From the NCBI RefSeq assembly GCF_003334385.1, contig NZ_QOWN01000177.1: a DNA stretch of 475 nucleotides; one strand, 5' to 3'. This DNA comes from Escherichia coli (GTDB lineage: Bacteria > Pseudomonadota > Gammaproteobacteria > Enterobacterales > Enterobacteriaceae). Below, one piece after another: positions 381-402 of the stretch. Below the pieces are notes generated by a model. That model made no database searches and was not told the origin of the DNA. It saw nothing but the letters and a program-made list of their open reading frames with translations. The position numbers and the translations under genes were made by a program. Position 1 is the stretch's first letter. Each line of letters opens with the position of its first letter.

Positions 381-402
381 AAGTCGTAACAAGGTAACCG
401 TA
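381..402 (+). other. rrs: 3' strand of helix 44 with A1492/A1493 (381-382), the colicin E3 cleavage position (between 382 and 383) and m3U1498 (387); universal 1492R primer-binding site
   Basis: AAGTCGTAACAAGGTAACCGTA is the exact reverse complement of the universal primer 1492R (TACGGTTACCTTGTTACGACTT). Its position is consistent with the offset, since 381+1111 = 1492. Confidence 0.95.

What the first reader, a model, noticed from the sequence alone, without database searches (positions are those of the whole stretch)
382..391. Toxin target sites in the 3' minor domain are intact
The colicin E3 / cloacin DF13 cleavage position (between A1493 and G1494, window 382/383) and the ACA at 1500-1502 (window 389-391) are present in canonical form. 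The ACA is the site reported for MazF cleavage that removes the anti-SD tail, a report that remains debated. This copy therefore has no rRNA-level variation that would alter sensitivity to those nucleases.
Basis: partly seen in the sequence, partly recalled or inferred. Interest (0 to 1): 0.12.

Follow-up and report, generated by a model that had tools for sequence, protein, structure and literature searches.

The report
Ordinary E. coli 16S rRNA end

Summary
Window 1-431 is E. coli 16S rRNA nt 1112-1542 (Rfam RF00177, 431 bits). Window 432-475 is the first 44 nt of the 16S-23S spacer. The numbering offset is +1111 with no indels.

All 475 bases are identical to the rrsG and rrsD copies of E. 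coli K-12 MG1655. The other five copies differ at one or two positions, none within 381-391. All 5,426 complete E. coli genomes searched hold a copy at 99% identity or better, and all 15 records listed are 100% identical.

A1493|G1494 is window 382|383. ACA 1500-1502 is window 389-391. Window 383-431 matches, base for base, the published 49-nt colicin E3 fragment.

The papers I read confirm the E3-family cleavage site. They confirm the reported MazF site, which releases a 43-nt fragment, and they confirm that the MazF claim is contested.

In the Rfam consensus structure A1500 and C1501 are paired with C1402 and G1401. That fits the view that MazF, which cuts single-stranded RNA, cannot reach this ACA in assembled ribosomes.

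Nothing here is novel. Uptake, immunity proteins and RtcB2-PrfH repair do.

The parts
1..431 (+). 3' part of the 16S rRNA gene, E. coli nt 1112-1542: end of the 3' major domain plus the whole 3' minor domain (h44, h45, anti-SD tail)
   Evidence: Rfam RF00177, 431.3 bits, E = 7.6e-136, model 1102-1533 of 1533. Identical to MG1655 rrsG and rrsD. Annotated '16S ribosomal RNA' under all 15 listed E. coli hits.
381..382 (+). A1492 and A1493, the decoding-centre adenines. A1493 is the 5' side of the colicin E3 / cloacin DF13 / CdiA-CT(ECL) cut.
   Evidence: Numbering. Unpaired in the Rfam consensus structure. Cleavage site from PMC2615495, PMC9304027 and PMC9990079.
383..431 (+). The 49-nt 'colicin fragment', G1494-A1542, released by E3-type rRNases
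   Evidence: Identical to the 49-mer printed in PMC11162774.
389..391 (+). ACA at nt 1500-1502, the reported (and disputed) MazF cleavage site. A cut 5' of A1500 would release window 389-431 (43 nt).
   Evidence: Numbering. Site and 43-nt fragment from PMC5416887. In the Rfam consensus A1500 pairs with C1402 (window 291) and C1501 pairs with G1401 (window 290).
288..298 (+). 5' strand of the top of h44 (C1399-C1409), which pairs with the target region
   Evidence: Pairs parsed from the cmscan structure line: 1399-1504, 1401-1501, 1402-1500, 1404-1497, 1405-1496, 1409-1491.
395..418 (+). Helix 45 hairpin (nt 1506-1529) with the GGAA loop. A1518 and A1519 are window 407 and 408.
   Evidence: Rfam consensus structure. 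That A1518/A1519 are the KsgA dimethylation sites is established knowledge and was not tested here.
424..431 (+). Anti-Shine-Dalgarno tail (CCUCCUUA, nt 1535-1542) and the mature 3' end
   Evidence: Read directly from the sequence. The MG1655 rrs annotation ends at this base.
432..475 (+). First 44 nt of the 16S-23S spacer. Window 436-475 is the 3' strand of the stem that encloses 16S in the primary transcript.
   Evidence: Lies beyond the annotated rrs end. Predicted duplex with the rrsB leader at -129..-88 is -54.1 kcal/mol, against -20.0 +/- 3.5 for shuffled trailers.

Best explanation
This is the unaltered 3' end of an E. coli (or Shigella) 16S rRNA gene, nt 1112-1542, followed by 44 nt of the 16S-23S spacer. 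Window 381-391 is the 3' strand at the top of helix 44, in the decoding centre. A1492 and A1493 read the codon-anticodon helix. E3-type rRNases enter the ribosomal A site and cut the bond between A1493 and G1494, which releases a 49-nt fragment and stops translation elongation. These enzymes include colicins E3, E4 and E6, cloacin DF13, pyocin S6 and the unrelated CdiA-CT of E. cloacae. [quoted passage not shown] Later work finds that MazF cuts rRNA precursors and not mature ribosomes. The sequence is invariant because of its role in decoding, not because of any relation to the toxins. The toxins exploit a site the cell cannot change. Shown here: identity, numbering and conservation. Taken from the literature and not tested here: the cleavage chemistry and its consequences.
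For: Rfam SSU match. 100% identity to MG1655 rrsG and rrsD, and no difference at 381-391 in any of the seven copies. A match of at least 99% identity in all 5,426 complete E. coli genomes, median 7 places per genome. Exact match to the published colicin 49-mer. Cleavage-site statements in PMC2615495, PMC9304027, PMC9990079 and PMC9086364. MazF site in PMC5416887. In the consensus structure 1492-1495 are unpaired, and 1500 and 1501 pair with 1402 and 1401. Among about 100,000 species genomes only 3 genuine 16S genes carry a non-A at 1500 within otherwise exact flanks.
Against: None against the identification. The window alone cannot say which rrn operon or which strain it comes from, since rrsG and rrsD are both identical to it. 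It also cannot say whether this copy is expressed. Sequence cannot show susceptibility to cleavage. E3 recognition may also involve ribosome elements outside the window; I could not check this because the structural paper was not held.
Confidence: 0.98

Rival explanations
1. The ACA at 1500-1502 is a functional regulatory switch. Under stress, MazF cuts it in mature 70S ribosomes to make 'stress ribosomes' that lack the anti-SD sequence and translate leaderless mRNAs, and RtcB re-ligates the fragment during recovery.
For: Reported and extended in PMC5416887 and PMC5001579 (listed). The ACA is present and intact, and the predicted fragment is 43 nt.
Against: [quoted passage not shown] A1500 and C1501 are base-paired in the consensus structure, whereas MazF is described as cutting single-stranded RNA. 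ACA is frequent, with 8 copies in these 431 nt of 16S alone, so its presence says nothing. The triplet is conserved across bacteria whether or not they have E. coli-type MazF, which decoding-centre function explains.
Confidence: 0.1
2. The window is a variant, heterogeneous or horizontally acquired rRNA copy whose differences elsewhere could change toxin sensitivity.
For: E. coli rrn operons do differ slightly. rrsH has T at nt 1120, and the spacers differ at +15 and +21.
Against: All 475 nt are identical to two K-12 reference copies and to the 15 listed hits from other strains, with at least 99% identity in every genome. No position in the 16S part differs from the majority sequence.
Confidence: 0.01

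Closest known systems
E. coli K-12 MG1655 rrsG / rrsD (16S rRNA genes, nt 1112-1542, plus spacer)
   Same: Identical at all 475 positions.
   Different: Nothing within the window. The strain or operon of origin cannot be told apart from many other E. coli genomes with 100% hits.
Colicin E3 / E3-rRNase target site (A1493|G1494) and the 49-nt colicin fragment
   Same: Window 382|383 is the scissile bond. Window 383-431 equals the published 49-mer.
   Different: Nothing.
MazF 'RNA43' site (ACA 1500-1502; Vesper et al. 2011 as cited in PMC5416887)
   Same: The triplet and the 43-nt distance to the 3' end are present.
   Different: Whether the site is ever cut in mature ribosomes is disputed. Sequence cannot decide this.

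Membership tests
Bacterial SSU rRNA (Rfam RF00177), E. coli 16S | Score above the curated gathering threshold of the covariance model (sequence plus structure) | tested here: met
   431.3 bits against a threshold of 50, E = 7.6e-136, running to the last model position.
Bacterial SSU rRNA (Rfam RF00177), E. coli 16S | Collinear, ungapped identity with the annotated reference genes so that E. coli numbering transfers | tested here: met
   0 mismatches to rrsG and rrsD and 1-2 to the other five copies, ungapped.
E3-rRNase substrate site | A1493-G1494 phosphodiester in the h44 internal loop of the decoding centre, with canonical flanking sequence | tested here: met
   Window 381-384 is AAGU, unpaired in the consensus structure. 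The 49-mer is identical to the published fragment.
E3-rRNase substrate site | Actual cleavage of this rRNA by colicin E3 or cloacin DF13 in assembled ribosomes | not testable with these tools
   Needs biochemistry. Inferred from identity with the E. coli rRNA used in the published experiments.
MazF (E. coli) cleavage site | ACA triplet | tested here: met
   Window 389-391 is ACA.
MazF (E. coli) cleavage site | The triplet lies in single-stranded, accessible RNA | tested here: inconclusive
   In the consensus secondary structure A1500 and C1501 are paired with C1402 and G1401, and A1502 is unpaired. Accessibility in the mature 30S against the precursor cannot be computed here. The literature is split.

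The most novel reading that the evidence does not exclude
The most novel reading still open is that the intact ACA 1500-1502 is a physiologically used MazF switch producing anti-SD-less ribosomes. This is an existing, contested hypothesis, and this window adds no evidence for or against it. The sequence gives no hint of any new feature.
Probability: 0.05. Interest if true: 0.3.

Novelty: already known. Interest (0 to 1): 0.03.

Why it matters
It matters little. The result is a negative control: this rRNA copy carries the canonical decoding-centre sequence, so it offers no rRNA-level resistance or altered sensitivity to E3-type rRNases or to the proposed MazF cut. The useful outcome is a firm identification of the window (E. 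coli 16S nt 1112-1542 plus 44 nt of spacer) and a verified coordinate map (window = E. coli number - 1111). Other findings on the same window can reuse that map.

Tried and rejected
(1) I looked for natural variation at A1500, the only lower-case position in this stretch of the Rfam consensus. I scanned one genome per species (100,044 species) for AAGTCGTABCAAGGTA. Of the 86 hits, 81 have neither 16S marker (CCGCCCGTC upstream or CCTCC downstream) and two more are not 16S-like by their flanking sequence, so 83 are chance matches. That is consistent with my back-of-envelope expectation that a 16-mer with three allowed variants gives chance matches on this order in ~298 Gb.

Only 3 hits are true 16S 3' ends: Janthinobacterium lividum PAMC 25724 with A1500G (L042), and two Bacteroidales MAGs with A1500C (L056, L086). 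These may be real variants or assembly errors, and I did not follow them up.

(2) I could not read Mets et al. 2017 (PMC5270532), Ng et al. 2010 (PMC3755339) or Vesper et al. 2011 (PMC4894548); they are not held. Their content is cited only through papers that quote them.

(3) I considered a per-site variant count across all 37,967 E. coli copies. The similarity tool reports only the best place per record, so rare variant copies within genomes cannot be counted.

(4) I checked whether ACA is over-represented. It is not: 10 observed against 7.6 expected.

Full report
**What the window is.** A covariance-model scan places window 1-431 on the bacterial small-subunit rRNA model (RF00177) at 431.3 bits, E = 7.6e-136. 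The match covers model positions 1102-1533 of 1533. It is cut off only at the 5' end by the window edge and has no indels downstream of window 24.

A megablast against 5,426 complete E. coli genomes finds a match of at least 99% identity in every genome, with a median of 7 places per genome. The 15 listed records are all 100% identical and the feature under each is annotated '16S ribosomal RNA'. One such hit lies in the gmhB-16S-tRNA(Ile)-tRNA(Ala)-23S context.

I fetched all seven rrs genes of E. coli K-12 MG1655 and compared nt 1112-1542 plus 44 downstream bases with the window, without gaps.
- rrsG and rrsD are identical to the window at all 475 positions.
- rrsH differs at nt 1120.
- rrsB, rrsC, rrsE and rrsA differ only in the spacer, at window 446 and/or 452.

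The window is therefore E. coli 16S nt 1112-1542 followed by the first 44 nt of the 16S-23S spacer, and window coordinate + 1111 gives the E. coli number.

**Checking the observation.** With that offset, window 381-392 reads AAGTCGTAACAA, which is A1492 to A1503. All seven reference copies carry the same twelve bases.

A cut after A1493 releases window 383-431, which is 49 nt. That string is identical to the 49-mer 'colicin E3 fragment' printed in PMC11162774. A cut before A1500 releases 43 nt, the size reported for the MazF fragment.

The trinucleotide ACA is not informative by itself. It occurs 10 times in the window, 8 of them in the rRNA, against 7.6 expected from base composition.

**Structure around the sites.** I parsed the consensus structure line of the Rfam alignment.
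- A1492, A1493, G1494 and U1495 are unpaired, forming the decoding-centre internal loop of h44.
- C1496 and G1497 pair with G1405 and C1404.
- A1500 pairs with C1402 and C1501 pairs with G1401.
- A1502 and A1503 are unpaired.
- G1504 pairs with C1399.
- Helix 45 follows at 1506-1529.

Two of the three bases of the 'MazF ACA' are therefore in a helix in the folded rRNA.

**What the literature says.**
- Same specificity in related toxins: the A1493/G1494 specificity is given for the E3-rRNase domain as a family, and that family includes cloacin DF13, colicins E4 and E6 and pyocin S6 (PMC9990079).
- Convergent toxin and repair: CdiA-CT from E. cloacae cuts at the same bond (PMC9304027; PMC9086364). 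RtcB2-PrfH is a dedicated repair and rescue system for exactly this lesion.
- MazF claim: MazF was reported to cut 16S rRNA of 70S ribosomes at the ACA at 1500-1502, releasing a 43-nt fragment with h45 and the anti-SD sequence (PMC5416887).
- MazF claim disputed: independent studies report that MazF targets rRNA precursors and not mature ribosomes, and that no specialised translation occurs (PMC6561025; PMC8546651; PMC12541390). The last of these suggests the sites are protected by structure or proteins.

**Conservation beyond E. coli.** In the Rfam consensus every base from 1492 to 1505 is upper case except a1500. To see whether A1500 really varies, I scanned one genome for each of 100,044 species for AAGTCGTABCAAGGTA.

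Of the 86 matches, only 3 lie in a genuine 16S 3' end. One is Janthinobacterium lividum with A1500G and two are Bacteroidales MAGs with A1500C. The other 83 are chance occurrences elsewhere in genomes. Even so, three cases among about 10^5 species indicate near invariance. 'Universally conserved' is a fair approximation, though not literally exact.

**Interpretation.** The stretch is conserved because it forms the decoding centre. The toxins exploit a site the cell cannot mutate. That this copy is canonical is the expected null result.

It needs the caveat that sensitivity in vivo depends on receptor and translocation machinery, immunity proteins and repair (RtcB2-PrfH), none of which an rRNA sequence reports.

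**Seen in passing.** Window 436-475 in the spacer forms a predicted 40-nt near-perfect duplex with the 16S leader at -129..-88 of rrsB. The energy is -54.1 kcal/mol against -20.0 +/- 3.5 for shuffled trailers. From established knowledge, this is the stem that RNase III processes to release the 17S precursor. The window also distinguishes rrn operon subtypes by two spacer SNPs and one 16S SNP.

**Verdict.** The feature is already known and of negligible interest beyond fixing the identity and numbering of the window.

Noticed in passing
window 436-475: The spacer downstream of the mature 16S 3' end forms a near-perfect predicted duplex with the 16S leader (-129..-88 in MG1655 rrsB): -54.1 kcal/mol against -20.0 +/- 3.5 for shuffled controls. 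This matches the known RNase III processing stem that encloses 16S in the primary transcript. The 5' strand lies outside the window.
   Followed up: partly
window 9, 446, 452: These are the only positions where the window differs from any MG1655 rrn operon: nt 1120 (T in rrsH), spacer +15 (T in rrsC, rrsA and rrsE) and spacer +21 (T in rrsB, A in rrsA). The window is identical to rrsG and rrsD, which have different spacer types further downstream: ileU follows rrsD, and no tRNA lies within 116 nt of rrsG. The window therefore cannot be assigned to one operon.
   Followed up: partly
L042:800-815 (-), L056:42-57 (+), L086:9421-9436 (-): Three 16S genes from other bacteria have a non-A at position 1500: Janthinobacterium lividum PAMC 25724 with A1500G on a 992-nt contig, and two Bacteroidales MAGs with A1500C. 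These could be real variants of the C1402-A1500 pair or assembly errors. The partner base at 1402 was not examined.
   Followed up: no
window 114-139, 283-299: Seven further ACA triplets lie in the 16S part of the window, at nt 1225, 1227, 1236, 1248, 1394, 1396 and 1408. One of them starts at A1408 in the decoding centre. If MazF cuts naked precursor rRNA at multiple sites, as the later literature states, these are equally eligible by sequence. Nothing singles out the ACA at 1500 except the original report.
   Followed up: no
H1 (NZ_CP007799.1, E. coli Nissle 1917) and plasmid hits: One record shows 19 matching places, and 10 of the 37,967 places are on plasmids. These counts are unusual for rRNA operons and may reflect assembly artefacts or rrn-bearing plasmids. 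They are unrelated to the finding.
   Followed up: no
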